Below, one piece after another: positions 12,439 through 60,897 of a stretch of DNA of 64,000 nucleotides (positions within the stretch are counted from its first letter, which is position 1; every line of letters starts with the position of its first letter). A program made the position numbers and the translations under genes. The DNA is taken from IMG/VR virus record IMGVR_UViG_3300025164_000635, positions 31,305 through 95,304 of that record; one strand, given 5' to 3'. The notes under the pieces were generated by a model. It saw only the letters and a list, made by a program, of their open reading frames with translations, ran no database searches and was not told the DNA's origin. The stretch is from a virus.

Positions 12439-12768
12439 TCATCCTGGTTGATAGATCGTAATGGAGTCGTTCACATTCATGAGGTCAGCCCCGCCTGGGC
12501 CAACCTTTTTCTTGCCGCCTCCTCCACTGCCTCCCTTGTCCTTCGTCTTCTTGCCCTGCCCCATCGGGCCTAATTCAAGCATGACCATTAGAGTTGACAG
12601 TTGTCGTTTTCGGGGCTCTTGAATCTCGACATTGACACCGGTCTGGGTAGTACGCCGACTGGCGGGCTCTTGAATCTCGACATTGACACCGGTCTGGGTA
12701 GTACGCCGACTGGCGGGCTCTTGAACCTCAACATCGACATCAACTTGGGTAATACGTCTCGTGCTCAT
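12439..12768 (-). CDS. Small protein with 17-aa tandem repeats
   Basis: RRTTQTGVNVEIQEPAS x3; two near-identical 51-nt DNA units around 12612-12725. Confidence 0.55.
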   Translation of the reverse strand: MSTRRITQVDVDVEVQEPASRRTTQTGVNVEIQEPASRRTTQTGVNVEIQEPRKRQLSTLMVMLELGPMGQGKKTKDKGGSGGGGKKKVGPGGADLMNVNDSITIYQPG

Positions 12769-13131: not shown

Positions 13132-13460
13132 TCGAGTACCCCCAGAAGTACAATCTTGAGTGTGGCTCCCAGGGGAGCCACCACGGAAACGCCGGTCAAG
13201 GTAGCGCCTCCTAGGTAAGCGACCGTGCAGTCATACCCTGAGACAGCCCCGTTCAGCCGGAGCTCAATCACTTCGTCACTCGACAGGAAAAGAGAGGTGA
13301 CGCTTGACAGAGGGGCCGGGAAGAGATCGACTGCGCTGGCCGAGGCTGGCAGCTCCATCTCGTATTGCATCATCTCAGCATCCCCGGTCAGGAGGTTCTC
13401 AAACAGGGGTGAAATGCGATCACCGTTTGTGTCCAGCACCGATAGGAAGACCTGCTTCAT
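13128..13460 (-). CDS. Hypothetical (putative structural) protein
   Basis: 110 aa, ATGA-coupled to portal. Confidence 0.55.
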   Translation of the reverse strand: MKQVFLSVLDTNGDRISPLFENLLTGDAEMMQYEMELPASASAVDLFPAPLSSVTSLFLSSDEVIELRLNGAVSGYDCTVAYLGGATLTGVSVVAPLGATLKIVLLGVLE

Positions 13461-15073
13461 TTGGGTACTCCTGCAGGAACAGGTACGGGCGCGTTCTGCC
13501 CATTCCCGGACGGCTGGCCACCCCCGAAGGGAGCCGGCTTCGATTCCGCGATCGCCGTAGCCCGTTTGATCTCAAGCTCGTTCTCAAATTCCATGTCGGC
13601 CCGGATGCGGTCCTGCTCTGCTTCGGGATCGTGGACGCCAATCTCGGTCAGGTAGCTCAGGAGACTGATACCGCCCTTCGTGAGGCGGTTATTGAGCATG
13701 TCGGCTCGTTCGCTTACTTCCAGGGGGATTTGAGGATTCCAGATCAATAGTTGATTGAGGCGAAGATGGTCTTCCGAGAGGTTGACTGGCAAAGTAACGC
13801 CGGCCTGGGTCAATGCATTTCCATAGCCCATCAGGCCGGCCAAGATGATGCGATTTAAGTGCCGCATGGCGGTCGAGAAGTCGATGCGCTCAGCTTGTGT
13901 GTGCGCCATCGTCGGCCACATCCGGTAAGCCGTCACCGGGCCCGTGATCCGGCCGCCCGACACATCATCGTCACCCAGAGCGACGGCTGCAATGTCGGCC
14001 TGCCGGCGGATCTCGTTCCAAAGCTCAGCATCGTAATTGGCAAGACTGGCTGGCACTTCGGGATAGCGCAGGAAGTCGGCCTTGGGATCGCCTGAGTTGG
14101 GAGCTGCTCTCTTCACGCCCAAATTGAGAGCAGTCGATACTTCCCGGCCATGCTCATCGAGAACGGGCTGCATCTTCAGACCCTTCTCAACATTGGCAAC
14201 AGTCATGATCGGATGGGTGACTTCCCGGACGGCATCCCCTTTGTCAGCCGATCTGAAATTCTTCTCTCGCGTCAATCCTACCAGGTCGGGAATGTGACTA
14301 TTGCCCCAGAATCCATCGTCTCGAATGTGGGGGATATAGACGATGGGCACTCTCTTGAATGGGTGTGGCCCTTCCAGGATACCGTATCCTTCAACTTGGG
14401 CCACTTTGCCGTTCACCCGAATGACATAGCTGTCCGGCGTCCAGTGCTCCATGTAGAGGGCATCTTCATTCTCATCAACCTTGACCCCGTAGCGTGCGGC
14501 ATCCACAGATGAGATCAGATAGCCAATGTAGCACTCCCGCAGGTTCCACCATTGGCCCTTGTCGTAAACGGGTAGCAGCGTTCCTGGTGTGACCGGGAAG
14601 ATACGCAGGCGGGTCGCTAACTCAGTATCTTGGGGTTGCCACAGGACTTGCAGGCCATACCCGCCGAACACCTGGGTCATCAAGCCCACCCTCTGAATGA
14701 GCGCAGTCGCTTCTGAGTCATCCCAAGTGGAGCGTAAGAGGTCCTGAATAGAGGTCGCCTCAGCTCGTGAGGTGCTACTATCACCGCCCGGTTTCACGAC
14801 GATCTGGACAGGGTTTGAGAGGACATTGTGAGGCTGAATCCCGATCAGTACGTCACGGTGGACGCGACACACTTTCCCGATCGGGTTCAGGGCAAGGGGA
14901 TAGAGCTTGGGGCGATCTCCGGTCGCCGGATCGGAGATACTAGACTCAGGATCACGAATGGAGTCCCCGCGAAACCACGACAGATAATCCGCGTAGGCGG
15001 TTCGCCGGGCAGCCCACTCGTCTGAATTGTAGAGTTCTTCGTCTGGATTCTTGACCAGGCCAAAGCGTGCCAA
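13457..15073 (-). CDS. Portal protein (SPP1 gp6-like)
   Basis: 538 aa downstream of terminase; HPFKRVPIVYIPH...WGNSHI..L; C-terminal IS...L..IG..DPEAE..RI..D. Confidence 0.8.
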   Translation of the reverse strand: MARFGLVKNPDEELYNSDEWAARRTAYADYLSWFRGDSIRDPESSISDPATGDRPKLYPLALNPIGKVCRVHRDVLIGIQPHNVLSNPVQIVVKPGGDSSTSRAEATSIQDLLRSTWDDSEATALIQRVGLMTQVFGGYGLQVLWQPQDTELATRLRIFPVTPGTLLPVYDKGQWWNLRECYIGYLISSVDAARYGVKVDENEDALYMEHWTPDSYVIRVNGKVAQVEGYGILEGPHPFKRVPIVYIPHIRDDGFWGNSHIPDLVGLTREKNFRSADKGDAVREVTHPIMTVANVEKGLKMQPVLDEHGREVSTALNLGVKRAAPNSGDPKADFLRYPEVPASLANYDAELWNEIRRQADIAAVALGDDDVSGGRITGPVTAYRMWPTMAHTQAERIDFSTAMRHLNRIILAGLMGYGNALTQAGVTLPVNLSEDHLRLNQLLIWNPQIPLEVSERADMLNNRLTKGGISLLSYLTEIGVHDPEAEQDRIRADMEFENELEIKRATAIAESKPAPFGGGQPSGNGQNAPVPVPAGVPK

Positions 15074-15371: not shown

Positions 15372-15599
15372 TTACAAGAATCTCTGTCGTTTGTCAATAT
15401 GGCGTCTCGTGACCACGCGCCTGAACCTTCCGCTTGCTCTAACCGACCGCAGACCGCCTCGGCTTCTCGGCTCGACCTGAATCTGAGGATTTGCAGTGTC
15501 TTCGATGAGCTGGGCCTGCCAGCGTATAACAATCTGCAACATTCGGCGTAACATTGACTGAACCTTGTCCAGTGACCAAAGTCCCATACGTTTGATCAT
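15372..15599 (-). CDS. Hypothetical protein
   Basis: 75 aa, ATGA-coupled to terminase stop. Confidence 0.45.
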   Translation of the reverse strand: MIKRMGLWSLDKVQSMLRRMLQIVIRWQAQLIEDTANPQIQVEPRSRGGLRSVRASGRFRRVVTRRHIDKRQRFL

Positions 15600-17455
15600 C
15601 GCCGATCCCTCCGGGTCTGTGTTCGTGCTCCTCGATAGGAGCTTCTCGGCAGCCTCACCATCTCTTCGTCATCACTGGCCGGCATGGGTTTCAGATCTTC
15701 GTTGATCCTGAACTTATCGACCACCCTACTCCAAAGAGTCCCTTCGTACCTGACCGCCAAGCAGTATACAAACAAAGAGGCAATCACGTCATCGGACAAC
15801 TTATCGTGCCCCGGCCCCTTTTCCCGGTAAACGCCGCCTTGATACCAAAGAGCGGTCAGCTTCGGCCAGGCAAAATGACTATCTTGCGCCAAGAGCGTAA
15901 ATAGAGACCGAGCCCAGGCTTTGTTGTTACCGGCAAACGTGACCGGCACAGTCTGATAGCTAGCGAAAACACCACTGTCCTCGAACCCGGTCAGTCCCAG
16001 ATTGGTCGCGTCGTAATAGCCCATGGCTGCGTAATCATCCATGCACTGCTTGAACGCGCTCAGCCACGGATCGTAAGTCCCATCCCCATCCAGCATCCCA
16101 AAATAGACTAACGGGATTGGTTTCACCATGAAGGTCGTCAAATCAAGCGCCAATACGGTCGGCACATTCTGGTCACTCAGCTGGGCCGGATACGACTTTC
16201 CCGGATCGCCCACCACAATGTAGCTATGTCGCGCAATTGGCGGCACTCGATACCGGATGACGCCCATTTCCCCTCGACTCTCAGACGGGATCCGCTCGGC
16301 CAGTAAGTCCTTATCCATCTCTTCATCGTGGCACCGATTGAAAAGCACTTCTGGCAATAGCCGATTCAGGCTCGAGGAGTTCGTATCCCCACCCAACCAA
16401 CGCCTCTGCTCGGCCTCAGATAGCAAGGCCCCATGAAATGCCTTCTGCCGATCGGTGATGTAGACGTTCGCGTCTCGGTGAATCCCCTCCACGTAGCGTG
16501 CCTTCACCAAAGGATCGTTCTTCTCGGCCAGCGTCCTGATGCGTCCTTTGAGCACTTCCAACTCAGGATTCAACATCCCGTCTTCGGGTGGGTTCGTCAG
16601 CATGGTCAGTTTCGACCACATATCCTCACCATTCGCCCGTTGTCCGCGCGAACGGGTCATGAGTGTTCCCAAAGCGGCCACAATACCCATGAGGTACTGC
16701 ACCTCGTCCACATTCAGCCAATCCACATTCTTCCCGGTAATGTTCTGCGCTGTGCCATCTCGCCCAATCGTTTGACACACAAACCGGCTCTCATATTGCG
16801 GCCCAAAGGGACTCCGAATCACCACGGTCGGGTGTGGCTTTGAGACAAACAACTCGCCCCCACGAGTCATCTCTACAAATTTCGTGAAGGGCGTATCGGT
16901 GCACCACTTTGTCAACTCTTCCACCATCAATACGGCCTGATTCTCGGTGGGCGCCACGTTCAGGAACCGGAAGCCCGGATACAACGCACAGCACCCCAGG
17001 CCCGCCACGGCTACCGCACTCGTCTTGCTCGTCCCGGTCCCCGTGATGGCCAGCACGACCGCCACACTCGGATCGATCAACCCATTCTGTATCACCCACG
17101 GCAAAAAGAGATACCCATGCGGATACAAGAAGTCTGGCTCAGCCAGCTCTGTCCAGCGCGTCTCAATACGCATGAGGCCAAACCCCTCGACCTCCAGTTT
17201 CATCTCCTGCTCCGGCCGGCCCGCCTGCACCCACATCTCGTGCAACTGACCGTACTCAAAAAGAGACCGGTAATGGCCAGTCTCACCCCCTTCCGCCCGC
17301 CAGCGAGTCCCCCCGCCTGGCAAGCGCATGTAGTAGTTCGTCAGCACATTCAGGTCACCGTCGCGTGCCTCCTTCAATACCCGCATGTCTGACGGCTCCG
17401 CCAGCGACTCAAATCGCTTCATCCACCTCGATAACGCCCTCTCGTCCGCCCTCAT
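15596..17455 (-). CDS. terL: Terminase large subunit
   Basis: Walker A-like GTGTSKT, APTENQA, Walker B WLNVDEVQ, LTNP, nuclease VGDPG and DDVIASL. Start moved to ATGA overlap at 17455. Confidence 0.85.
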   Translation of the reverse strand: MRADERALSRWMKRFESLAEPSDMRVLKEARDGDLNVLTNYYMRLPGGGTRWRAEGGETGHYRSLFEYGQLHEMWVQAGRPEQEMKLEVEGFGLMRIETRWTELAEPDFLYPHGYLFLPWVIQNGLIDPSVAVVLAITGTGTSKTSAVAVAGLGCCALYPGFRFLNVAPTENQAVLMVEELTKWCTDTPFTKFVEMTRGGELFVSKPHPTVVIRSPFGPQYESRFVCQTIGRDGTAQNITGKNVDWLNVDEVQYLMGIVAALGTLMTRSRGQRANGEDMWSKLTMLTNPPEDGMLNPELEVLKGRIRTLAEKNDPLVKARYVEGIHRDANVYITDRQKAFHGALLSEAEQRRWLGGDTNSSSLNRLLPEVLFNRCHDEEMDKDLLAERIPSESRGEMGVIRYRVPPIARHSYIVVGDPGKSYPAQLSDQNVPTVLALDLTTFMVKPIPLVYFGMLDGDGTYDPWLSAFKQCMDDYAAMGYYDATNLGLTGFEDSGVFASYQTVPVTFAGNNKAWARSLFTLLAQDSHFAWPKLTALWYQGGVYREKGPGHDKLSDDVIASLFVYCLAVRYEGTLWSRVVDKFRINEDLKPMPASDDEEMVRLPRSSYRGARTQTRRDRR

Positions 17456-17640
17456 CCATCCCCCTTCCCTACAGGTGGAGTCTTGCCCCACCATTCCGTG
17501 CGTCTGGAGACCGCCTCATCAAAGGCGTCCAGACAGCTAATTAGAAACTGCGCCAGGATGAAGTCCGGCGTGTCCGACCGATTCTCCATGCTGTTCTCGT
17601 TCAGCAACACCGTCAGCTTGTCCCGAAATCCGTCACTCAT
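17452..17640 (-). CDS. Conserved small phage protein (N..S.EN.SDTPDFILA..L..CL)
   Basis: 62 aa, GAGGT RBS. Confidence 0.6.
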   Translation of the reverse strand: MSDGFRDKLTVLLNENSMENRSDTPDFILAQFLISCLDAFDEAVSRRTEWWGKTPPVGKGDG

Positions 17641-28303: not shown

Positions 28304-28335
28304 TTGACAAACTCTTGATTGGGTGTATAATCAAG
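28304..28335 (+). promoter_or_regulatory. Sigma70-type promoter with overlapping inverted-repeat operator
   Basis: TTGACA-16-TATAAT; CTTGATT-N8-AATCAAG spans the -10. Confidence 0.75.
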
Positions 28336-28505
28336 TCCAAGAATGGGGAAGGGGAGAAGCAAGCCGACTGGGGATACCTTCGTATTGACTCCCCTACCCT
28401 CTTCCTGGCTGAGGATTGAATGTGCGAGTGTTCTCTCATCCTTCTTACCCACGTGTGGACATTGCGCTCCGTTTCGATTCTCCCCTGTCCGAGAAGGAAT
28501 AGGTC

Positions 28506-28832
28506 ATGAATTGCGTCATCAACTTCTCACATCCGCTGACCGAATATCAGTACAAGGATCTCTCAGAGCAGCTTGGCCACTTCACCGAAGTATATAAGCC
28601 TGTCCAGTTCGATATGGTCACGGGCAACCTGCGCCGAGAAGTGGAGACCCTGCTGAATGACACCGTGCAAGACATCTCGGAGATTGTCGCCATTATCCCG
28701 CCAAAGTTGAGCGTGGCGGCCTATTGGATGGCGCTCGAGATGGAAGCGCTGGGATGGCACAATGTACCAGCCGTCTACTTTATTCATGACTCCAGCGTCC
28801 CCCCTCAGTTTGTCGTGGGCGGTGTAGAGTGA
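28506..28832 (+). CDS. csx15: Csx15-like protein (CRISPR type III associated family), phage-encoded
   Basis: INFSHPLT..Q...L......PVQFD...V..L....I.PP.L..A...A.......P.......S.PPQF.V matches the Csx15 signature as recalled. Confidence 0.7.
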   Translation: MNCVINFSHPLTEYQYKDLSEQLGHFTEVYKPVQFDMVTGNLRREVETLLNDTVQDISEIVAIIPPKLSVAAYWMALEMEALGWHNVPAVYFIHDSSVPPQFVVGGVE

Positions 28833-28993
28833 TCTGGCTATTCTTCGCACTCATCATGTTTCTGGTCATCGACTACCATCGCTTGCGAAGGGCCTGGAAG
28901 GGACCCGGGCCTTTCGATGGACAAGGCTATCCCAGCTCAACGCTGCGGCTTCTGATCGTAGCAACGGTAGTCGCCATACTCCTGCTGAGGTGA
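28829..28993 (+). CDS. Small two-TM protein (54 aa)
   Basis: GTGA overlap; MIWLFFALIMFLVIDY...LLIVATVVAILLLR. Confidence 0.5.
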   Translation: MIWLFFALIMFLVIDYHRLRRAWKGPGPFDGQGYPSSTLRLLIVATVVAILLLR

Positions 28994-28997
28994 AATC

Positions 28998-29255
28998 ATG
29001 AAAGTCTATCGACAAACATTCCAAGTCACCGGGTTAGGCTCCTTCCCACTCGACATGCTCCGATATGATGAGTGCTATCCGCGCACAGAGCGAGATACAG
29101 CTCTGATCGATCAGTCTTTCCAGGAAGCCAACGTGCAATACATTGGCCTTGAGCGCATCCTCACCGATGAGGCGAAAGACCCCACATTCGATCGCTGGAA
29201 GTCATTCCTGTGGGCAGTTGTGAAGAATAGCATCGTGACAGAGCAAATCAAATGA
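28998..29255 (+). CDS. Conserved hypothetical protein (F.V.G.G.FP.DMLRYD.C.P...PT..RW.SF.W)
   Basis: GAGGTG RBS; recognisable small phage protein motif. Confidence 0.65.
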   Translation: MKVYRQTFQVTGLGSFPLDMLRYDECYPRTERDTALIDQSFQEANVQYIGLERILTDEAKDPTFDRWKSFLWAVVKNSIVTEQIK

Positions 29256-29488
29256 GCTCCGATCTCAGACCCGAGAAGGTCATATTGCAATTTGTCCAGG
29301 AAGCCGAAGAGCAGGGCCGGACACTGGCCGAGATTGCCAAGCACACCGGTCTCTTCCAGGCGCAGGCCGCTGTCATGCTCCAGACCTGGGAGAACGAGGG
29401 CTACCTTGTCCGGCACATTAACACCTATGGGGCACCGGGAAAGGAAAGGACGGTCGCGCGCTGGTACGCGACCCCCAAGAAGGACTGA
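29252..29488 (+). CDS. Winged-helix DNA-binding protein
   Basis: TLAEIAKHTGL...L..WE.EGYLVR. Confidence 0.6.
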   Translation: MSSDLRPEKVILQFVQEAEEQGRTLAEIAKHTGLFQAQAAVMLQTWENEGYLVRHINTYGAPGKERTVARWYATPKKD

Positions 29489-30981: not shown

Positions 30982-31490
30982 TAAGGTTCAAGCTCATCAT
31001 CTACACCGATGGCTGTTGCTTCCCGGTGCCTAACTCAGCCGGGACAGGTGGCTATGCCGCCGTCCTACGCTATGGAGAGAGCACCAAAGAGATTGTCGGC
31101 GGTTTCCTGATGACCAATGCGCCTCGGATGGAACTCTACGGGGCACTCACGGCCCTGGAAGCACTCAAGAGGCCATGTCATGTCATCATCAGGAGTGACA
31201 GCAAGTACCTGGTCAATATGTTCGGGCAAGGGTGGGCCAGGAAGTGGAAGGCACAAGGATGGTACCTTGATCCCAGGGCCACCGTCCCACAGTTGGCCAA
31301 GAACGTTGACCTTGTGAGCCGGCTCCTGAACATGATTGATTCACACTTCTCGGTCAGGTTTGAGTGGGTGAGGGGCCACAACGGGGACCCCGATAACGAG
31401 CGGTGTGACAAGCTGGCCCAGCAAGGAGCCGAAGAGGCTTACGAGCCGGACCCAGGCTACCAACCCAGACAGGAGGAGAGTGATGGGTAG
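30978..31490 (+). CDS. rnhA: Ribonuclease HI
   Basis: IYTDG, GGYAAVL, RMEL, SDSKY, KNVDL, WVRGHNGDPDNERCDKLA. Confidence 0.92.
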   Translation: MIRFKLIIYTDGCCFPVPNSAGTGGYAAVLRYGESTKEIVGGFLMTNAPRMELYGALTALEALKRPCHVIIRSDSKYLVNMFGQGWARKWKAQGWYLDPRATVPQLAKNVDLVSRLLNMIDSHFSVRFEWVRGHNGDPDNERCDKLAQQGAEEAYEPDPGYQPRQEESDG

Positions 31491-31761
31491 CCAACCCAAG
31501 TACCGAGTCTGGTATGATGAGATGTCCGACCTCCTTCAGGAACCACTCACTCCTCGTGAGCAAGAAGTGGCGACCCTGGTTGTAGCCGGCCTGCGAAACA
31601 AAGAGATTGCTAACCGGCTCTGCATCAGTGTAGAGACGGTCAGGACGCATGTTGCCAATATCCTTGCCAAGCAGGGCATTTTAAGCCGGAAAGACATCCG
31701 GTTGGGCGACTTGCAACCTGCCCCTTCCCTTGGCGTTCAAGCGGGAGAAAGCAAACCATGA
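31483..31761 (+). CDS. LuxR-type HTH protein
   Basis: LTPREQEVATLVVAGLRNKEIANRLCISVETVRTHVANILAK. Confidence 0.88.
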   Translation: MGSQPKYRVWYDEMSDLLQEPLTPREQEVATLVVAGLRNKEIANRLCISVETVRTHVANILAKQGILSRKDIRLGDLQPAPSLGVQAGESKP

Positions 31762-33953: not shown

Positions 33954-34894
33954 TCGCCGTCGTCAACGCTCGTGACTGGAAGCAGGATGGGGAGTACATC
34001 GGGTGGGCCAACCAGCCCCGCTTCCCGGTATCCTCACCGCTTGCCAATCCCTTTCTGGGCTTGCTCAAACGAGGGATAAGCCGGGAAGATGTGGTTGCCC
34101 GCTACCGCGGCTGGCTGAGAAATCAGTACCGCGTGAATGGGCCAGCCAAGCGAGAGTTGCTACGCCTATCGCACAAGCATAAGGCGGGTGAGAACATTGT
34201 CCTCGTCTGCTGGTGTAAGCCCGATCCATGTCACGGTGATGTCGTTGCCGAGGCCATAGCAGGCATTGAGAAAACTCTGAAAGTGTCAACTACCACGACA
34301 GAAGAACCCAAATATCCATCCTACACTTTGTCAAACGAGTCTGCCATGGTCAGGGTGGTGGGAGCCACCTACGATCCTGGAACACAGACCCTCGTGGCAG
34401 CCCAGATCGTGACCAATGCGAAAGAACTACAGGTGGCTGTCCGAGCAAGTCTGTCGGTGAACAGGAAGAACAGCTTTCTATATCTCAATGGCCCGGCCAT
34501 GCATGTCGAGCTTCTTGGCGCTCGAAGGGGCTACCAAGTCATCACCGCCAACCTGGAAGCCAAAACAGGGGCGCAAGGACTGACCAGCTTCCTGCTTCAT
34601 CCAGGCGCGGGCAATCCGGCCGGTCTGGAAAATTTCTATGTCGTCTCTATGGAGCACGAGGACCCTGTTCGGAAATTTATCCAGCGCCTAGCTCTGGCAA
34701 CTCCCTGGGGCTACCTGGATGAGTGGGGCAGTGCTCTTTACGAGCACGGCTTACATGAAGGGCTGATTGAGAGTCTGCCCGTGGTCGGTGTCTCGGACAT
34801 CAGGAACGCCATCCGGGTAAGCTCTAGCACAGATGCTTGGAGAGACATCATTCGACTTGCACTCTATTCCGGCGAGATCACGCTCGCCGGTTAA
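33950..34894 (+). CDS. DUF4326-like N-terminal domain fused to an unknown domain
   Basis: YIG...SPLANPF...R..V...Y..WL...L.CWCKP.PCHGDV. Confidence 0.7.
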   Translation: MIAVVNARDWKQDGEYIGWANQPRFPVSSPLANPFLGLLKRGISREDVVARYRGWLRNQYRVNGPAKRELLRLSHKHKAGENIVLVCWCKPDPCHGDVVAEAIAGIEKTLKVSTTTTEEPKYPSYTLSNESAMVRVVGATYDPGTQTLVAAQIVTNAKELQVAVRASLSVNRKNSFLYLNGPAMHVELLGARRGYQVITANLEAKTGAQGLTSFLLHPGAGNPAGLENFYVVSMEHEDPVRKFIQRLALATPWGYLDEWGSALYEHGLHEGLIESLPVVGVSDIRNAIRVSSSTDAWRDIIRLALYSGEITLAG

Positions 34895-34902
34895 GGAACT
34901 CA

Positions 34903-37900
34903 ATGGCACGTTTGGAATCACAGAGCAAACTGTTGTACTACCCCACTGAGCCAGCCATCATTGAGATGATTGCTTCCTGGTTTACGGTCAAGACACCGAT
35001 TCGCCTGGTTGATCCGGCCTGCGGTATGGGCGCCGCCCTGCGGCAGTTCGCGGACCTTCTCGGCGGATCTGCGGAAACCTGGGGCATCGAGCTCTCCTAC
35101 TCCCGATCGGTCGAGGCTGCTAAGGTACTGGATCGGGTGCTGCCTACCACCTTCTATGGTGTGAGCTGGGCGAGACGCTCTGTCTCTCTGGCGTTCAACA
35201 ATCCACCTTACGACTGGTCGGAGACACGGGACGAGTCCGGGAAGAGGTTGCGGCACGAGTACCTCTTCGTCACTAAGACGACCGACAAGATCATCGCAGG
35301 CGGCCATCAGGTGATTCTCATTGGGCAGAGTCAGATGGAAGAACGACTGGCCCGTCACCTGGCCGGCTGGTATGAATCCTTCCAGGTATTCAAGTCGGGC
35401 GAGGACTATGAGAAATTCGGTCAGATTGTGATCCTGGCCTGCAATCGGGGAGCGGCCTATGTCCATCCGGGGAGCAAGGCCATTCAGGAACTCACCTGCC
35501 TGACCGATGACCACCTGATCATGGGATGGGGGAAACAGGAAGAGTCTTATACCGATGAAGAGACTGGTGAGGAGAAGACACGCAAGGTGGAAGTGCCGGT
35601 CTTCACCGACATCCCGCCCATGCGTGCTCGCCAGGAAGATGAGCCTGCCTGGGTCATCCCTTCCCGGCCCGATGAGGATCGGTTTAGTTATGCGCCCGTC
35701 TCTCACACCGATATGGTGGATGCCGCCCTGCGCTGTAAACTGACCGCGGCCGAGGAGTTTCGGAAAGTGACTCATGTCAAGCCGGTCGGCTCTCCCTTCC
35801 AGACAGCCGTGCCGCCCAAGATTGGGCACGTGAGTATGCTTCTCGGTGCGGGCGAGATTGGAACACTCCCGATCATATTGCCCGATGGGCGCCGAATGCT
35901 ATTGCGTGGTCTGTCCCAGAAACAGAAGGTGCAGACCTCCCTGCCCGTCATGGATAGTAAAGGACAGGTGACCCACTACAACGTGGAGGAACGGGAGAAG
36001 CCTTGCACTGTCATTACCACGATCACGGACAAAGAAATTGAACTGGTGTCCGACATCAACAGTGTGGGCGATCTCATCACTCGCTATGCCGATCCTCTAG
36101 CCTCTGCTATCTTGCAGAGGAATCCGGCCACCTATGGCTTCGACCCCACTGAATCTGAATGGCGTTCCCTGGACGGCGTGGCGGCCCAGCTACCGCCCCT
36201 TCCAGGAAGAGACGAGCGTGGCTTGTTCAACGCCCAGAGACATCTTGCCATCGCCGGGAAGAGAGTACTCCAGCAACATGGCCACCTGATCATCAACGGG
36301 GAAATGGGTATTGGCAAGACGGCTATGGCTGTCTCCATCTTGGTGCTGATGAATAGCACACTGGGGCTGGTGAGGGAGATGAACCAGTGGCCAGCCCTGA
36401 TCTACTGCCCAGGTCATATGGTCGGCAAGTGGCGTCGGGATACGGAAGCCATCGCCAAGCCAGATGAGCCGATTGCCGCGCGGATCATCAGTGATCCCGT
36501 GCGCCGTGGCCGAACCTTCTACCACAATGTGATTCTGCCTCTCATCGAGGAGGCGGAAGGCGAGGTCACCAGCCGGGAAAGGACGCAGGTCGATCCGATA
36601 GCCGACAGCGATTCCGGCGGCCGCTGTAGGCTGACCGTCCGCGTTTCGCCGCGAAACAGGACCCGTCTAGTCAGGGCGCTGGAACAGGCAACCCGTGTGA
36701 CCTTCCGGGCCAAGAGGCGCAACGGTGACTCAGGCAGCCCGAGTGTCAGGCTGACCATGACGACCCAATTCACCATCGATGGCTTCCAGGCACATTACTT
36801 CGATCAGGATGAGTACACCCTGTTCGATTTCGCGTCTGACTGGCAGGCAGGCCGGCTTGGAAAGAGGGCCGTCGCCATCGTTGCGTTTGACCCTGGCAAG
36901 TATGGGGCTGGAGCGGTCCAGATAGTGCCAGAGCACTACTCCTCCAAGATGGGGCCGTCCAAGCATTACACACCCTGGGATAGAACTCAGGATGACAAGG
37001 ATGTCCGGCCCATCCCGGCCCTGTTTGGAGCCGGTGAGGTTCTCAAGGAACGGCTTCTACTGCGCTGGAAGAAAGGCATCACCGTCGTCGATAGTGAGGA
37101 CGGTAAGAGTGCTGTTGAGGAAGAGAGGAAAGTCAGAGCGTTCCAGTGCCCCATATGTGGCTGTCACTACATGGACTGGAACAAGATTCCTGACTTCTGT
37201 GCCGGGAAGGTGGACAAGGGCTACTGGCACTTCGATGAATCTGAGCGGACCGATGGGAAGGAAGGAAAGTGGAAGTGGCAAAAGGTTGAGGGTAAGTGTC
37301 AGACCCCTCTATTTGAGATGTCGAGATGGCGCCGGGAAGGGGTTGCCCGTCTTATCCAGAAGAAATTCAGACATCTGTTCAAGATTTACATCGCCGATGA
37401 AGTGCATAAGGCCCAGGCGGCCCGCACAGACATCGGCGTGGCCGACTCCCGGTTCATTGCCGGCACTCGGTACTCGATTGCTTTGACTGGCACTCTGTTC
37501 GGTGGAACCGCCTCCTCTCTGTTCTATCTGCTCTACCGGAGAAATCCAGAAGTGAGACAGAACTACTCCTATGAGGACGGCCACAGTCTATGGGTCAATC
37601 ACCATGGTTTGTTGAAATACACCTACTCTCAGGACGAAGCACCCCGGCCAGGGGATCGGGGAGCCACGACCAACATCAAGCGTTGGAACTATCGATCCAC
37701 AGAGCTTCCCGGCATCATGCCCTCGGTCATAAGGTTTCTCTTGCCCATCACCTTGTTTGCAAGGATTACCGACCTGGGCTACCAGTTGCCGCCTCTCCAC
37801 GAGCACATTGAGCGTATTCCGATGAGTCCTGAGATGGTGGAAACATACGCTAAAATCACCGGCCCTATGCTCAAGAAGGCGGTGACGATCGCCAAAGAGG

Positions 37901-38949
37901 ACAAGGACCCAGGCTGTTTGTCGATCTGGTTCCGAGCGGCCTGGATGTGGCCGAACGCCGCCTTCCGGGACGCCCACTTCACGCGAGGTGAGTTCGACTG
38001 GAAGTTCAAAGCCTGCCCTGGTATCCTGCCGAAGGAAGCCCGACTCCGTGAGATTGTCCGTGAGAACCGGGAAGCAGGGCGCAAGACCTTGATCTTCGTC
38101 GAGCAGTCCGCGACGAGAGACATCCGGGAAAGGCTGCGAACCGTCATCAGGAACGGACATGACGACGTAGAGATTGCTGTCATCGAGGACAGTGAACTCA
38201 CCGAGAACGAGAACGGGATTGATCTCGATCTGAAGGTATCCCTGCTCAGCGCCGGTGACATGAGTCCAGCCAAGCGGGAGAGATGGATCAAGCTGCACGC
38301 GCCCACGATGAGCGCACTCATCGTGAATCCAAAGCTGGTCGAGACCGGGCTGGATCTCGTTATGTTCAACCACATCGTGTTCTACGAGCTGCCCCTATCC
38401 CTGTACGTCCTATGGCAGGCGCAGAGGCGAGTGTGGCGACTAGGTCAGAAGTCAGACGTCGACGTCACCTTCCTGGTCTACGTCGATGAAACCGGCCATA
38501 GCATGGAGGCTCGTCTGCTGGACTTGATGGGCTTGAAGATGAAGTTCGCCCTGGTGCTGTACGGAGACGAGGCGACCGGCGCCCTCATCTCGATGGATGA
38601 CGATGACCTGGAACGGGAGATCATCCGGGCAGCCCTGGAAGGCAAGAGCTACGCTGACTTGGGAGAAGTGGTGCAAGTGGGTCATATCTTCTCGACCAGC
38701 GAGACGGGAAGAGAGTCGGGTCAGACCGCCATCAGCGCCAGCCCCTTCGGAGAGCCTACGGCCACCTCGGTCAACTTTATGGAGATTGAGGAAGCCCTGG
38801 AGCCCGAGCCGGTGCTCGTTGTGGACGACCCTGAACTAGAAGCCATGACCATCCCGGTTCCAGCCGGGAAGGTGACTGCTCAACTGGATATGTTTGGCGG
38901 CCTGGTGAACATCGGGTCGCTGCCGCGTTCCCGGAAGAGGAAATGGTAA
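34903..38949 (+). CDS. Methyltransferase-SF2/SNF2 helicase fusion (DarB-like)
   Basis: YYPT, DPACGMG, GIEL, NPPY; GEMGIGKT, IADEVH, LTGT, VETGLDL, QAQRRVWRLGQ; 1348 aa. Confidence 0.85.
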   Translation: MARLESQSKLLYYPTEPAIIEMIASWFTVKTPIRLVDPACGMGAALRQFADLLGGSAETWGIELSYSRSVEAAKVLDRVLPTTFYGVSWARRSVSLAFNNPPYDWSETRDESGKRLRHEYLFVTKTTDKIIAGGHQVILIGQSQMEERLARHLAGWYESFQVFKSGEDYEKFGQIVILACNRGAAYVHPGSKAIQELTCLTDDHLIMGWGKQEESYTDEETGEEKTRKVEVPVFTDIPPMRARQEDEPAWVIPSRPDEDRFSYAPVSHTDMVDAALRCKLTAAEEFRKVTHVKPVGSPFQTAVPPKIGHVSMLLGAGEIGTLPIILPDGRRMLLRGLSQKQKVQTSLPVMDSKGQVTHYNVEEREKPCTVITTITDKEIELVSDINSVGDLITRYADPLASAILQRNPATYGFDPTESEWRSLDGVAAQLPPLPGRDERGLFNAQRHLAIAGKRVLQQHGHLIINGEMGIGKTAMAVSILVLMNSTLGLVREMNQWPALIYCPGHMVGKWRRDTEAIAKPDEPIAARIISDPVRRGRTFYHNVILPLIEEAEGEVTSRERTQVDPIADSDSGGRCRLTVRVSPRNRTRLVRALEQATRVTFRAKRRNGDSGSPSVRLTMTTQFTIDGFQAHYFDQDEYTLFDFASDWQAGRLGKRAVAIVAFDPGKYGAGAVQIVPEHYSSKMGPSKHYTPWDRTQDDKDVRPIPALFGAGEVLKERLLLRWKKGITVVDSEDGKSAVEEERKVRAFQCPICGCHYMDWNKIPDFCAGKVDKGYWHFDESERTDGKEGKWKWQKVEGKCQTPLFEMSRWRREGVARLIQKKFRHLFKIYIADEVHKAQAARTDIGVADSRFIAGTRYSIALTGTLFGGTASSLFYLLYRRNPEVRQNYSYEDGHSLWVNHHGLLKYTYSQDEAPRPGDRGATTNIKRWNYRSTELPGIMPSVIRFLLPITLFARITDLGYQLPPLHEHIERIPMSPEMVETYAKITGPMLKKAVTIAKEDKDPGCLSIWFRAAWMWPNAAFRDAHFTRGEFDWKFKACPGILPKEARLREIVRENREAGRKTLIFVEQSATRDIRERLRTVIRNGHDDVEIAVIEDSELTENENGIDLDLKVSLLSAGDMSPAKRERWIKLHAPTMSALIVNPKLVETGLDLVMFNHIVFYELPLSLYVLWQAQRRVWRLGQKSDVDVTFLVYVDETGHSMEARLLDLMGLKMKFALVLYGDEATGALISMDDDDLEREIIRAALEGKSYADLGEVVQVGHIFSTSETGRESGQTAISASPFGEPTATSVNFMEIEEALEPEPVLVVDDPELEAMTIPVPAGKVTAQLDMFGGLVNIGSLPRSRKRKW
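36642..36658. repeat. parS-like palindrome copy 3
   Basis: CGTTTCGCCGCGAAACA inside the helicase gene. Confidence 0.8.
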
Positions 38950-43816: not shown

Positions 43817-44014
43817 ATGACCATGGTTTCCTGCACAAATTGCCGGTATTACCACAGTGATTCGTGGCTCGATACATGGTGGATGCTGTGTACCCACCCT
43901 TCCTGGAAAGATGAGGGCCGAATTTTGCCCAACCGGGAAGACCCCACTACCCCGCCCTGGTGCCCCCTGAACCAGCCGGAGGAAAAACTAACCCTTGACA
44001 ACTATCTTGAATAA
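43817..44014 (+). CDS. Small Cys-rich protein
   Basis: SCTNCRY...C.HP...PPWCPL. Confidence 0.5.
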   Translation: MTMVSCTNCRYYHSDSWLDTWWMLCTHPSWKDEGRILPNREDPTTPPWCPLNQPEEKLTLDNYLE

Positions 44015-44027
44015 GTATACAATCAAG
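43995..44027 (+). promoter_or_regulatory. Sigma70-type promoter with the same operator as 28304
   Basis: TTGACA-17-TACAAT; CTTGAAT-N8-AATCAAG. Confidence 0.75.
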
Positions 44028-44029
44028 CC

Positions 44030-44197
44030 ATGAAGAAGAGATGGTCTTTCCCCTACGTCTATTACTGTAGGAACTGCAAGCGCACACATGCGCGGAATGT
44101 ATCCAGGCGCAATTACCCCTGGGGATGCCCCTACTGCAAGAGTAATAACTTGGTGACAAGCCGGTCCAAAGGAGTCCCTTCCAGGAAGGAACCATGA
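44030..44197 (+). CDS. Small zinc-ribbon protein, probably leaderless (55 aa)
   Basis: YCRNC...CPYCKS; ATG 7 nt after the -10 box; ATGA overlap with next gene. Confidence 0.55.
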   Translation: MKKRWSFPYVYYCRNCKRTHARNVSRRNYPWGCPYCKSNNLVTSRSKGVPSRKEP

Positions 44198-44526: not shown

Positions 44527-45340
44527 CTACCAGCCCTGCCGAATCCGCATCTTCCGGGACGAGGGCTACGAACACACGAATCGTGTTGCCATCTTTGACA
44601 TGGTTAGGCAGGTCGTGATCAAGGTATGGCACCATAGGAATGGATGGAAGGACCCGAGTCCCCATCCTGCCCATAGCCCCTTTGATGTCTGTGGTCGATA
44701 CGACCTTGCTCTAAAGGACTGCCTCCAGATTGCCAAGAACCAGGCAGCCATCCTCAACCTGCCTTTTCGGCAGGCCAGTGACATTGTGTCTGCAGACGAC
44801 ATCCTAGAAGGCGAAAAACGAGGCTGTCTGATCTGTGGTAAAAACGACAAGCGATCAAGAGACAACTTCATCTGCAATCCTTGCCTCAAGATCATCGCAG
44901 CAGGGCAGATGGCTGCCGCCGACAAGGGAGAATATGGCATCTCCACGGAGTTCGGCTATCCTCTGCGCTTGAATCGTGAGCAAGGGGAGAGTCTCGCCCA
45001 TCTCATCTGTAAACTGGCGGGAACGAGCCTGGGAACTTCCGGCTTCTATCTCAACCTTGACCGTATAGGGGACCCCGGTGGCTCTTTCAATACCTCCTAC
45101 AAGTGGCCAATCACCTTAACGCTTGACCAAAAGAATGCCCTGGTTGAGCTTCTTAACCTCATCGGGGCAGCTTGTCAGAATAACTACACGGTCGGCCTGG
45201 AAGAGGGAGCCCGGTTCGTGCAGGGCATTGCGACCGGTCGTTACTCTGTCGCGGAAATCAACGAGAAAGAAGCCGGGCTAAGTGCTTCCCGGAAGAAGAT
45301 CGACAAAGACCTGAGCAAATGGGATGGAGGAGACGAATGA
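44510..45340 (+). CDS. Hypothetical protein with CxxC-CxxC finger
   Basis: CLICG...ICNPC. Confidence 0.6.
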   Translation: MKNESNYQPCRIRIFRDEGYEHTNRVAIFDMVRQVVIKVWHHRNGWKDPSPHPAHSPFDVCGRYDLALKDCLQIAKNQAAILNLPFRQASDIVSADDILEGEKRGCLICGKNDKRSRDNFICNPCLKIIAAGQMAAADKGEYGISTEFGYPLRLNREQGESLAHLICKLAGTSLGTSGFYLNLDRIGDPGGSFNTSYKWPITLTLDQKNALVELLNLIGAACQNNYTVGLEEGARFVQGIATGRYSVAEINEKEAGLSASRKKIDKDLSKWDGGDE

Positions 45341-46188
45341 CCACCTGCTGTTTCTATCACAGGGGGTGCACGGACGGGTTCGGCGCGGCTCTAGTCGTCC
45401 GCTTGCACTTGCAGATGAAACGGGATTTTGTACCGCTTGTAGAGGTTGAGTTCATTCCCGTCCAGTATGGTGACGAGGCGCCCGACGTGACCGGGAAAGA
45501 TGTGATCATCGTGGACTTCAGTTGGCCGCGTGAAGTCTTGCTTCGTATGGAGACGCAGGCCAACAGCATAGTTGTCCTCGATCACCACCAGTCCGCCGAG
45601 AGCGAGCTGGCCGACCTGGACTTCTGCATCTTCGACACGAGCAAGTCAGGCGTCGTGCTGGCCTTTGAGTTCTTCTTCCCGGACTCCATCATACCTGACT
45701 TATTCCTCTATCTTCAGGACCGTGACTTGTGGCAGTGGAAGATGCCACAAAGCCGGGAAGTCAACGCCGCCATCCGCAGCTACCCGTTCGACTTCGAGCT
45801 CTGGACATCCTTCCTGGAATACGGCAAGATGAAGAACCTGGTGGTGGAGGGAAAGGCCATTGTCCGTTACCAGGATCAGCAGATCCGGATTGCCCTGCCT
45901 CACGCTGAACTGGTTGAAATCGGCGGCCACCAGGTCCCTTGCCTGAACGCCACACATCTCACTTCCGAGATTGCCCATGAGCTTATCGGTGACTATCCCT
46001 TTGCCGCTGTGTACTATGACGTGAAGGACAACAAGCGGGTGTTCCAGTTACGGTCCAAAGAGGGTGGCATCGATGTGTCCGAGATCGCCAAGTTGTACGG
46101 TGGCGGTGGACATCGGGCAGCGGCCGGCTTCACGATCCAGATTGGTCATACTGGCCTGGAAGAGTGGGGACTCGAGAGACTTCTTTGA
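45337..46188 (+). CDS. DHH/DHHA1 phosphoesterase (NrnB-like)
   Basis: YH..C.DG, VDFS, LDHH, DRDLW, LRS...DVS.IA..YGGGGH..AAGF. Confidence 0.9.
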   Translation: MTTCCFYHRGCTDGFGAALVVRLHLQMKRDFVPLVEVEFIPVQYGDEAPDVTGKDVIIVDFSWPREVLLRMETQANSIVVLDHHQSAESELADLDFCIFDTSKSGVVLAFEFFFPDSIIPDLFLYLQDRDLWQWKMPQSREVNAAIRSYPFDFELWTSFLEYGKMKNLVVEGKAIVRYQDQQIRIALPHAELVEIGGHQVPCLNATHLTSEIAHELIGDYPFAAVYYDVKDNKRVFQLRSKEGGIDVSEIAKLYGGGGHRAAAGFTIQIGHTGLEEWGLERLL

Positions 46189-47777: not shown

Positions 47778-47814
47778 TTGACAATCTGTGATAAATTGGG
47801 ATAATCTGTGATAT
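47778..47814 (+). promoter_or_regulatory. Sigma70-type promoter overlapped by direct repeats
   Basis: TTGACA-16-GATAAT; AATCTGTGATA twice with 20-nt period. Confidence 0.6.
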
Positions 47815-55297: not shown

Positions 55298-55326
55298 TTG
55301 ACAGCCTTCTCGGAAACCCCTATAAT
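55298..55326 (+). promoter_or_regulatory. Perfect consensus sigma70 promoter
   Basis: TTGACA-17-TATAAT. Confidence 0.8.
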
Positions 55327-60896: not shown

Positions 60897-60897
60897 A

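What the first reader, a model, noticed from the sequence alone, without database searches (positions are those of the whole stretch)
28304..28832. Phage-borne Csx15-like gene under a near-perfect host promoter: candidate type III anti-CRISPR
Seen: a 108-aa ORF with NFSHPLT, QFD, PP.L and PP.F.V motifs. It is the first gene after TTGACA-16-TATAAT, and no cas genes or array are in the window. Known: Csx15 is a type III CRISPR accessory family linked to cyclic oligoadenylate binding/turnover, and viral ring nucleases (AcrIII-1) disable type III immunity. Inference: a captured Csx15 acting as a cA4 sponge or ring nuclease, expressed immediately on entry. It also hints at a Chloroflexota host.
Basis: partly seen in the sequence, partly recalled or inferred. 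Interest (0 to 1): 0.8.

Follow-up and report, generated by a model that had tools for sequence, protein, structure and literature searches.

The report
Phage-borne tail-less Csx15 homologue
A 95-kb uncultured phage carries, behind a perfect consensus promoter, a shortened relative of Csx15 (a protein that binds or cuts the cyclic-adenylate alarm of type III CRISPR); it keeps the ligand-binding face but lacks the second face needed for cutting, so it probably traps the alarm, an untested variant of an idea published in October 2026.

Summary
Window 28506-28832 (+) encodes a 108-aa protein with the four named motifs. It is the first gene after a 12/12 TTGACA-16-TATAAT promoter. The record is a virus with portal, terminase and primase genes, and I found no Cas10 and no CRISPR-like array.

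The protein is a true but divergent Csx15 homologue:
- NCBIfam CAS_Csx15 scores 22 bits, below the curated cut-off of 35.
- Profile-profile comparison with canonical Csx15 gives 99.5% probability (E 2.8e-23).
- A PDB Csx15 chain matches at E 1e-5.
- Predicted-structure TM is 0.84 to Csx15 clusters.

It belongs to a small, well-supported clade of about 105-112-aa proteins. All four members with readable neighbours lie in phage-like DNA without cas genes. The clade keeps the "head" adenine-pocket elements (H9, QFD, PPxL, F102). It lacks the "tail" histidine and the C-terminal arginine helix, both of which are required for filament-dependent ring-nuclease activity in canonical Csx15.

My best reading is a cyclic-oligoadenylate binder or sponge that acts as an anti-type III factor. 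A self-sufficient ring nuclease is less likely. A palindromic operator over the -10 box and an HTH gene in the operon resemble acr-aca loci.

Viral Csx15 ("AcrIII-3") is already proposed in print, and this scan has noted phage Csx15 genes on other genomes. The function is untested, and the Chloroflexota host is plausible but unproven.

The parts
28304..28331 (+). Sigma-70-type promoter: TTGACA (28304-28309), 16-nt spacer, TATAAT (28326-28331)
   Evidence: 12/12 consensus match. One of only two perfect sites in the 95-kb genome.
28314..28335 (.). Perfect inverted repeat CTTGATT-N8-AATCAAG spanning the -10 box; candidate repressor operator
   Evidence: Only two sites with 2 or fewer mismatches in the genome: this one and 44006-44027, also over a promoter -10 box. 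Shuffled sequence gives 0.03.
28338..28505 (+). 5' leader of about 170 nt with an AAGGA ribosome-binding site at 28494-28498
   Evidence: Sequence. No significant structure (z -1.09). No Rfam family.
28506..28832 (+). 108-aa tail-less Csx15 homologue (P0001)
   Evidence: Csx15 profile hits; hhalign 99.5% to canonical Csx15; AF2 model pLDDT 95; SAVED/CARF at the top of the fold matches; TM 0.84 to Csx15 clusters.
28829..28993 (+). 54-aa ORF with two predicted hydrophobic helices; its GTG start overlaps the Csx15-like stop codon (GTGA)
   Evidence: No Pfam match. Functional link untested.
29252..29488 (+). 78-aa winged-helix HTH protein in the same operon; candidate Aca-like repressor of the operator
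   Evidence: HTH_IclR 7.4e-6, MarR_2 1e-3. Assignment to the operator is inference.
43995..44027 (+). Second promoter (TTGACA-17-TACAAT) carrying the same operator (CTTGAAT-N8-AATCAAG, 44006-44027); ATG at 44030 suggests a leaderless mRNA

Best explanation
The gene encodes a 'head-only' member of the Csx15 lineage of CARF/SAVED-like cyclic-oligonucleotide-binding proteins.

Shown here:
- It is homologous to Csx15 over canonical residues 2-113.
- It has the Rossmann-like five-stranded core.
- It keeps the elements that contact cA4 adenines on the head face of HaCsx15. These are H9 (Ha H8), Q34-F35-D36 (the Ha V35/R37 region), P65-P66-x-L68 (Ha L71) and F102 (Ha F106).
- It lacks the tail histidine (the ELHGR motif) and the whole C-terminal arginine helix (Ha R118/R122/R125).
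- It belongs to a distinct clade whose members with readable neighbours all lie in phage-like DNA.

Inferred:
- Like other Csx15 proteins it forms a dimer whose head pocket binds cA4, or possibly other cyclic oligoadenylates or CBASS trinucleotides.
- Without a tail it cannot build the composite head-to-tail active site with copies of itself.
- Transcribed early from a strong, repressor-controlled promoter, it therefore lowers free second messenger mainly by sequestration. This blunts cA4-activated type III CRISPR effectors (Card1/Can2- or Csx1-type) in an Anaerolineae-like host.
- The operator over the -10 box and an HTH gene in the operon would then shut the operon off, as Aca proteins do for acr operons.
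For: Homology:
- NCBIfam CAS_Csx15 E 1.4e-4; PADLOC Csx15/20 8.4e-6.
- All 18 family representatives hit CAS_Csx15.
- The family profile hits PDB 9tet Csx15 at 1.1e-5 and the CbCash Csx15 domain at 1.9e-4.
- hhalign of short against canonical: 99.5%, E 2.8e-23.

Fold:
- AF2 pLDDT 95.4.
- Best VIA-align matches are SAVED and CARF sensor domains, Z 5.8-7.0.
- ESM Atlas TM 0.84 over 106 residues to Csx15 clusters.

Head kept, tail lost:
- Alignment and residue map.
- The canonical model has helices 57-62 and 115-125 that the target model lacks.
- N6, H9, P10, D36 and P66 are invariant in the family.

Roles of the residues come from papers:
- H8A, R118A and R125A abolish activity, and an H8A+R125A mix restores it. 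The HaCsx15 dimer binds F4cA4 in the head pocket (10.64898/2026.10.26.761840).
- PfCsx15 acts as a cA4 sponge with H11 as the main binding residue. CliCsx15 H90A loses oligomerisation (10.64898/2026.01.21.700848).

Viral context:
- Virus record with portal, TerL and primase.
- L032 lies next to scaffold and major head genes; L028 carries phage families.
- L001 carries ParB, C5 methylase and PAPS reductase.
- Only the gene itself is shared between these contigs.

Clade: support 99/93.

Promoter and operator; HTH.

Possible hosts have the target pathway. Canonical Csx15 was found in 116 of 301 Anaerolineae genomes. In G001 it lies next to a Card1/Can2-like gene and on the same contig as Cas10.
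Against: - There are no binding or activity data for any member of this clade.
- The score is below the curated Csx15 cut-off.
- PfCsx15 sequesters cA4 by sandwiching it in filaments that use tail arginines. A one-sided pocket may bind too weakly to act as a sponge.
- The target has Y91-F92-I93-H94 where most relatives and canonical Csx15 have basic residues at the end of strand 4 (LKR / RLR). This could weaken phosphate contacts.
- The host is unknown, so the presence of a cA4-dependent system in it is not shown.
- The conserved catalytic-type histidine would be unnecessary for a pure sponge.
Confidence: 0.45

Rival explanations
1. It is a genuine, self-sufficient ring nuclease (an AcrIII-3-type enzyme). 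It would cleave cA4 using H9 plus other residues, without the canonical tail.
For: The histidine equivalent to the catalytic H8/H13 is invariant, together with N6 and P10. Viral ring nucleases AcrIII-1 and AcrIII-2 set the precedent, and canonical Csx15 relieves type III immunity in vivo (10.64898/2026.01.21.700848; 10.64898/2026.10.26.761840).
Against: R118A and R125A (HaCsx15) and H90A (CliCsx15) each abolish or nearly abolish activity in canonical enzymes. All of these positions are missing here. No alternative conserved basic cluster is evident. The semi-conserved K/R pair after strand 4 is replaced in this protein.
Confidence: 0.17
2. It is a 'head donor' or filament modulator. The phage dimer stacks its head, with cA4, on the tail of the host's own Csx15. 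That either completes active sites and speeds host-mediated signal clearance, or caps and poisons the filaments.
For: Mixing head-dead (H8A) and tail-dead (R118A or R125A) HaCsx15 restores activity, so head and tail can come from different dimers (10.64898/2026.10.26.761840). Canonical Csx15 is very common in the candidate host class (116 of 301 genomes). The Anaerolineales MAG G001 has both forms.
Against: About 21% identity between the two profiles makes a conserved hetero-interface doubtful. The family sits in unrelated phage backgrounds whose hosts may lack Csx15.
Confidence: 0.1
3. It is not a counter-defence protein. It is a small nucleotide sensor used by the phage itself, for example paired with the overlapping 54-aa two-helix membrane peptide as a signal-gated membrane effector (superinfection exclusion or lysis timing), or it binds a different ligand.
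For: The membrane ORF is translationally coupled by a GTGA overlap. The L028 homologue is also followed by an overlapping small hydrophobic ORF. Csx15 domains do serve as sensors in fusions (Cash, PMC13462974) and occur fused to transmembrane helices (10.64898/2026.10.26.761840).
Against: The membrane neighbour is absent in L001 and L032. Small hydrophobic ORFs are common in phage genomes. The two downstream peptides showed no detectable similarity in the tblastx comparison.
Confidence: 0.13
4. It targets CBASS or another cyclic-oligonucleotide defence rather than type III CRISPR.
For: Canonical Csx15 also cleaves 3'3'3'-cAAG and 2'3'3'-cAAA and is a close relative of SAVED (10.64898/2026.10.26.761840). 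The best fold matches here are CBASS SAVED domains: Cap5, Cap14 and TIR-SAVED.
Against: The symmetric dimer pocket residues conserved here are those described for cA4. The Z scores are middling (7 or lower). Csx15 associates with Cas10 far more often than with CBASS cyclases (same paper).
Confidence: 0.1

Closest known systems
Canonical CRISPR-associated Csx15 ring nucleases (HaCsx15, CsCsx15, CliCsx15 = PDB 9teu; NCBIfam NF040560)
   Same: Homologous over canonical residues 2-113 (hhalign 99.5%). Same Rossmann-like five-stranded core. Same head motifs: NFSHP with the catalytic-type His, QxD, PPxL and PPxF/Y.
   Different: About 18 residues shorter. No ELHGR tail histidine, no C-terminal arginine helix, and no short helix equivalent to 57-62. 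Below the curated family score. Encoded in phage DNA and not next to cas genes. It cannot form the published composite active site with copies of itself.
PfCsx15 (PDB 9tet), the orphan non-enzymatic cA4 sponge-like Csx15
   Same: Best PDB sequence match of the family profile (E 1.1e-5). Stand-alone gene outside a CRISPR locus. The proposed mode of action is sequestration, with the head histidine as the main binding determinant.
   Different: PfCsx15 keeps H82 and R116/R120/R123 and sequesters cA4 inside head-to-tail filaments. The phage protein has no tail site.
Proposed viral Csx15 'AcrIII-3' (vCsx15 URC17498 of Lokiarchaeota virus Skoll, plus more than 20 metagenomic viral sequences; bioRxiv 10.64898/2026.10.26.761840)
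   Same: A virus-encoded Csx15 homologue proposed, without experiments, to counter type III signalling.
   Different: The preprint describes vCsx15 as structurally close to full HaCsx15. Whether any of its sequences belong to the tail-less clade could not be checked, because no supplement text is held. Searches of IMG/VR with the family patterns found no further member.
AcrIII-1 (DUF1874) and AcrIII-2 (viral SAVED, PDB 9r8s) ring nucleases
   Same: Viral proteins that remove cA4. vSAVED shares the fold class (Z 5.8).
   Different: Different families with demonstrated fast catalysis. vSAVED is a double-domain protein with its own arginines.
Cyclic-nucleotide sponges Acb2, Tad1 and Tad2 (recalled from my own knowledge, not tested here)
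   Same: The proposed mechanism: small early phage proteins that sequester immune second messengers.
   Different: Unrelated folds. Their binding has been measured; nothing has been measured here.

Membership tests
Csx15 (NCBIfam NF040560 CAS_Csx15) | Score at or above the curated family cut-off (35 bits) | tested here: not met
   22.1 bits, E 1.4e-4, aligned to model positions 2-78 of 125. Of the ten relatives scanned individually, only P0014 passes, at 96 bits. P0014 groups with canonical Csx15 in the tree.
Csx15 (NCBIfam NF040560 CAS_Csx15) | Detectable homology to bona fide Csx15 sequences and structures | tested here: met
   hhalign 99.5%, E 2.8e-23 against 15 canonical Csx15. PDB 9tet at 1.1e-5 and CbCash at 1.9e-4. 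All 18 of 18 family members hit the model at 0.01 or better.
Csx15 (NCBIfam NF040560 CAS_Csx15) | Rossmann-like fold with a five-stranded sheet, related to CARF/SAVED | tested here: met
   AF2 pLDDT 95.4 with five strands and three helices. TM 0.84 to Csx15 clusters. SAVED/CARF domains top the VIA-align list at Z up to 7.0, which is a middling value.
Csx15 (NCBIfam NF040560 CAS_Csx15) | Head-face histidine in the N-terminal NFS(G)H motif (Ha/Cs H8, Cli H13, Pf H11) | tested here: met
   H9 is invariant in the family.
Csx15 (NCBIfam NF040560 CAS_Csx15) | Head-face aromatic residue that stacks on adenine (Ha F106, Cli Y113) and the PPxL pocket leucine (Ha L71) | tested here: met
   F102 and L68 align to canonical Y107 and L72.
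Csx15 (NCBIfam NF040560 CAS_Csx15) | Tail-face histidine (Pf H82, Cli H90; the ELHGR motif) | tested here: not met
   The aligned residue is E80. No short-family member has LHG[RK], whereas all 21 canonical sequences do.
Csx15 (NCBIfam NF040560 CAS_Csx15) | C-terminal helix with three conserved arginines (Ha R118/R122/R125) | tested here: not met
   The protein ends at E108, directly after strand 5. Canonical R119/R123/R126 align beyond its C-terminus. The canonical model has helix 115-125. The stop codon is genuine, and read-through or shifted frames give no such helix.
Csx15 (NCBIfam NF040560 CAS_Csx15) | Genomic association with type III CRISPR-Cas / Cas10 | tested here: not met
   No Cas10 in the virus record and no array. 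The relatives L001, L028 and L032 lie in phage-like contexts.
Csx15 (NCBIfam NF040560 CAS_Csx15) | cA4 binding, ligand-induced filament formation, ring-nuclease activity | not testable with these tools
Csx20 (NCBIfam NF040559; PADLOC Csx20) | Profile match at or above the cut-off | tested here: not met
   14.4 bits against a cut-off of 70. PADLOC 1.7e-3 and 3.2e-3 over residues 5-59 only. These are weaker than the Csx15 matches.
Anti-CRISPR operon with Aca-type control | Strong promoter with an inverted repeat over the core elements, plus an HTH gene in the same operon | tested here: inconclusive
   The promoter and a perfect 7-bp inverted repeat over the -10 box are present, and the repeat recurs at a second promoter. 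A wHTH and a LuxR-type HTH lie in the operon. Binding and repression were not tested.

The most novel reading that the evidence does not exclude
The tail-less proteins form a virus-specific lineage of 'half-site' Csx15. It has been selected to keep only the cA4-binding head, and it works by stacking on the tails of the host's own Csx15 (or other head-to-tail SAVED/Csx15-type assemblies). It would thereby hijack or cap host filaments, turning the host's slow signal-clearing enzyme into a fast one or blocking a filament-activated effector. This would be a new anti-defence mechanism (heterotypic filament capping by a viral half-domain), not a simple sponge or nuclease.
Probability: 0.1. Interest if true: 0.8.

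Novelty: new variant of a known kind. Interest (0 to 1): 0.5.

Why it matters
Only two viral ring-nuclease families (AcrIII-1, AcrIII-2) have been shown to work. Viral Csx15 has been proposed only from metagenomes. This case gives a concrete, apparently complete phage genome in which a Csx15 relative sits in an acr-like, operator-controlled early operon.

It also shows that at least one virus-associated clade has systematically shed the tail half of the composite site. That is a natural separation-of-function variant. Testing it would show whether the Csx15 head alone suffices for cA4 capture, and whether phages prefer sequestration to the slow filament-dependent catalysis of cellular Csx15.

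It would also add to the very few known counter-defence genes of phages that infect Chloroflexota-like hosts.

Tried and rejected
- Pfam and PHROGs give no family for the protein.
- The word-indexed protein search found only the protein itself.
- tblastn against 50,697 GenBank phages found no match.
- IMG/VR pattern scans with the family alignment and with P0003 found no further member.
- Foldseek against PDB and BFVD gave nothing at E of 1e-3 or better. The Csx15 crystal structures did not appear among the fold-library matches, so I made no direct structural superposition on a solved Csx15.
- A frameshift or read-through that would restore the arginine helix is rejected. The in-frame continuation and the overlapping frame give no such helix, and homologues in three other contigs end at the same GG(I/V)E with unrelated downstream genes.
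- A riboswitch or structured leader is rejected.
- Host assignment by DNA matches: 20 kb of the phage against 401 genomes of the class of G001 gave only short weak hits, and three checked hits were not in repeat arrays. There is therefore no spacer evidence.
- The ESM Atlas feature hits to Pam3_gp32 (0.88-0.89) are below the reliable range and are not backed by Pfam.
As a result I have no dimer or tetramer prediction, no expression data, and no contexts for the many short-contig family members.

Full report
**1. What is there**

Window 28506-28832 (+) is an ATG-initiated 108-aa ORF. It has an AAGGA ribosome-binding site 7 nt upstream. About 175 nt upstream lies TTGACA (28304-28309), a 16-nt spacer and TATAAT (28326-28331), a 12/12 match. 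The whole 95,304-bp genome has only two perfect sites and three 11/12 sites. By my estimate from base composition, about 0.01 perfect sites are expected by chance.

The leader shows no significant fold (z -1.09) and no Rfam match.

**2. The replicon is a phage**

The tools call the record a virus record, single contig, CheckV completeness 100. The window encodes the following:
- a portal protein (phrog_64, 13457-15073 -);
- a large terminase (phrog_2, 15596-17494 -);
- a primase (60838-62118 +);
- SSB, RNase H, a RadC-like JAB protein and a 1370-aa methyltransferase-helicase.

No Cas10 palm domain is in the record and no CRISPR-like repeat array is in the window.

**3. Is it Csx15?**

Single-sequence scans are weak but specific:
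- NCBIfam CAS_Csx15 gives E 1.4e-4 and 22.1 bits, against a curated cut-off of 35.
- PADLOC Csx15/20 gives 8.4e-6.
- Pfam and PHROGs give nothing.

An exhaustive HMMER search of 1.8 billion representatives found only 18 proteins. All are about 103-126 aa and match end to end. All 18 hit CAS_Csx15 at 0.01 or better. Of the ten scanned individually, only P0014 passes the cut-off.

The family profile hits the solved Csx15 chain 9tet at 1.1e-5 and the Csx15 domain of CbCash at 1.9e-4. Used on 301 genomes of the class of an Anaerolineales MAG, it finds canonical Csx15 genes in 116, with E down to 1e-21. Profile-profile comparison of the short family (A4) with 15 canonical sequences (A3) gives 99.5% probability and E 2.8e-23, covering canonical residues 2-113 of 126.

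The AlphaFold2 model is confident (pLDDT 95.4, pTM 0.87). Its order of elements is b1-a1-b2-a2-b3-a3-b4-b5. The structure evidence is as follows:
- VIA-align against 48,161 PDB representatives puts SAVED domains first (Cap5, Cdn1, Cap14, TIR-SAVED; Z 6.7-7.0).
- CARF domains and the viral SAVED ring nuclease follow at Z 5.8-6.3. These Z values are middling, but the class enrichment agrees with the published Csx15-SAVED kinship.
- The ESM Atlas structure search gives TM 0.84 over 106 residues to clusters named Csx15, mostly from Chloroflexota and 125-126 aa long.

Homology is established.

**4. How it differs**

Canonical Anaerolineae Csx15 is about 126 aa. It carries an invariant AELHGRxGYFP motif and a C-terminal helix LNLQAVRDxARxRR. 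A model of one such protein shows a short helix at 57-62 and a terminal helix at 115-125 that the phage protein lacks.

In a joint alignment, canonical residues map to the target as follows:

| Canonical residue | Target residue |
|---|---|
| H8 | H9 |
| Q35-x-D37 | Q34-F35-D36 |
| P70-x-L72 | P66-x-L68 |
| Y107 | F102 |
| H84 | E80 |
| R119 / R123 / R126 | beyond the C-terminus (protein ends at E108) |

None of the short-family sequences has LHG[RK] or an arginine-rich end. All 21 canonical sequences have the LHG[RK] motif, and all that are complete at the C-terminus have the arginine-rich end.

According to the two 2026 preprints:
- H8 and F106 stack on adenines of cA4, and V35/R37 and L71 form the second adenine pocket on the head face.
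- R118, R122 and R125 (with H82/H90 in PfCsx15 and CliCsx15) form the tail face.
- H8A, R118A, R125A and H90A each abolish or nearly abolish cleavage.
- Head-dead and tail-dead mutants complement each other, because the active site is built between stacked dimers (10.64898/2026.10.26.761840; 10.64898/2026.01.21.700848).

The truncation is not an artefact. The stop codon is genuine and alternative frames give no arginine helix. Homologues on three other contigs end at the same GG(I/V)E with unrelated downstream genes.

**5. A virus-associated clade**

In a maximum-likelihood tree built on shared columns, 21 short sequences form one clade (support 99/93, stem length 1.36). This clade is separate from the canonical Anaerolineae sequences. 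The one exception, P0014, groups with the canonical sequences; it passes the NCBIfam cut-off but also lacks the tail histidine and the arginine helix.

Contexts could be read for four members:
- this phage;
- L032, where the gene sits just before head scaffolding and major head genes;
- L028, a dense same-strand array of small genes with phage families;
- L001, a contig binned in an Anaerolineales MAG, with ParB-like, C5 methylase and PAPS-reductase genes.

None has cas genes, and only the gene itself is shared among them. L030 carries two tandem copies.

The same MAG (G001) also has a canonical Csx15. That copy lies next to a Card1/Can2-like gene and a Cas6-like gene, on the same contig as Cas10.

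**6. Regulation**

A perfect inverted repeat, CTTGATT-N8-AATCAAG (28314-28335), spans the -10 box. The only other site in the genome with 2 or fewer mismatches is 44006-44027, again over the -10 box of an 11/12 promoter. Shuffled sequence gives 0.03 such sites.

No terminator-like site is seen before about 33000. The operon contains a 78-aa winged-helix protein (29252-29488) and a LuxR-type HTH (31405-31761).

A strong promoter, an operator over the core promoter and an HTH gene in the operon are the architecture of acr-aca loci. This supports an early, self-limited counter-defence operon. It is architecture only; neither binding nor timing was tested.

**7. Mechanism**

I commit to a head-only cyclic-oligoadenylate binder that acts mainly by sequestration (confidence about 0.45). 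Reasons:
- The head pocket is under strong conservation.
- The HaCsx15 dimer binds its ligand in that pocket in the crystal without a stacked partner.
- In PfCsx15 the head histidine is the main binding determinant, and that protein is itself sponge-like.
- All tail residues needed for catalysis and stacking are gone.

Caveats:
- One-sided binding may be weak.
- This particular protein has YFIH where relatives carry basic residues after strand 4.
- The invariant histidine may hint at chemistry.

The rivals are a self-sufficient nuclease (0.17), a head donor or capper on host Csx15 filaments (0.10), a sensor for the phage's own use, possibly with the overlapping 54-aa two-helix peptide (0.13), and an anti-CBASS role (0.10).

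**8. Host**

The Chloroflexota hint is reasonable. The nearest taxon-labelled homologue and a second shared gene (a C5 methylase, 40% identity) lie on an Anaerolineales MAG contig. Canonical Csx15 is very common in that class, and the structural neighbours are mostly from Chloroflexota. However, DNA searches of 401 genomes gave no prophage or spacer match.

**9. Novelty**

Viral Csx15 was proposed as "AcrIII-3" in October 2026 from one archaeal virus MAG and more than 20 metagenomic sequences, without experiments (10.64898/2026.10.26.761840). The White laboratory raised the sponge idea for Csx15 in 2024 (10.1101/2024.09.24.614671). This scan has also noted phage Csx15-like genes on many other genomes.

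What appears to be new here is threefold:
- the recognition of a distinct, virus-associated clade that keeps the head, including the catalytic-type histidine, and has lost the entire tail;
- its placement in an operator-controlled early operon;
- the link to Anaerolineae-type hosts rich in canonical Csx15.

I rate it a new variant of a known kind, with interest 0.5.

Noticed in passing
window 28314-28335 and 44006-44027: A shared palindromic operator (CTTGATT-N8-AATCAAG) lies over the -10 box of two distant consensus promoters. These are the only two such sites in the 95-kb genome. The second promoter has an ATG 6 nt after the -10 box (44030), which suggests a leaderless mRNA for a 55-aa CxxC...CxxC protein.
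   Followed up: partly
window 45319-46188 (+): A DHH/DHHA1 phosphoesterase (NrnA/GdpP-like; Pfam E about 2e-6 to 4e-6) lies in the operon driven by the second operator-bearing promoter. Enzymes of this class degrade short linear oligoribonucleotides or cyclic dinucleotides, so it could act on defence signals or on ring-nuclease products. Untested.
   Followed up: no
window 28829-28993 (+); L028 3283-3513: A 54-aa ORF with two hydrophobic helices overlaps the stop codon of the Csx15-like gene (GTGA). The L028 homologue is also followed by an overlapping small ORF with a hydrophobic helix. L001 and L032 are not.
   Followed up: partly
L030 139-309 and 873-1169: Two tandem copies of the short Csx15-like gene on one small metagenomic contig.
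   Followed up: no
window 55298-55326 (+): A second perfect TTGACA-17-TATAAT promoter without the operator. A further 11/12 promoter at 47778 carries a different direct repeat (ATCTGTGATA, two copies) around its -10 box.
   Followed up: no
window 12613-12765: Three tandem copies of a 51-nt unit (two of them identical) between the structural genes on the minus strand.
   Followed up: no
window 34837-38949 (+): A 1370-aa protein that combines a DUF6094 methyltransferase domain with SNF2/helicase C domains, resembling phage anti-restriction or DNA-modification proteins.
   Followed up: no
L028, whole contig: Nearly every ORF ends in ...GS followed by the stop codon. This probably reflects a GGAG-type ribosome-binding site of the next gene embedded in each gene's end.
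   Followed up: no
window 28343-28597 (+): An 84-aa ORF starts 12 nt after the -10 box and overlaps the Csx15-like start in another frame. I found no evidence for or against its translation.
   Followed up: no
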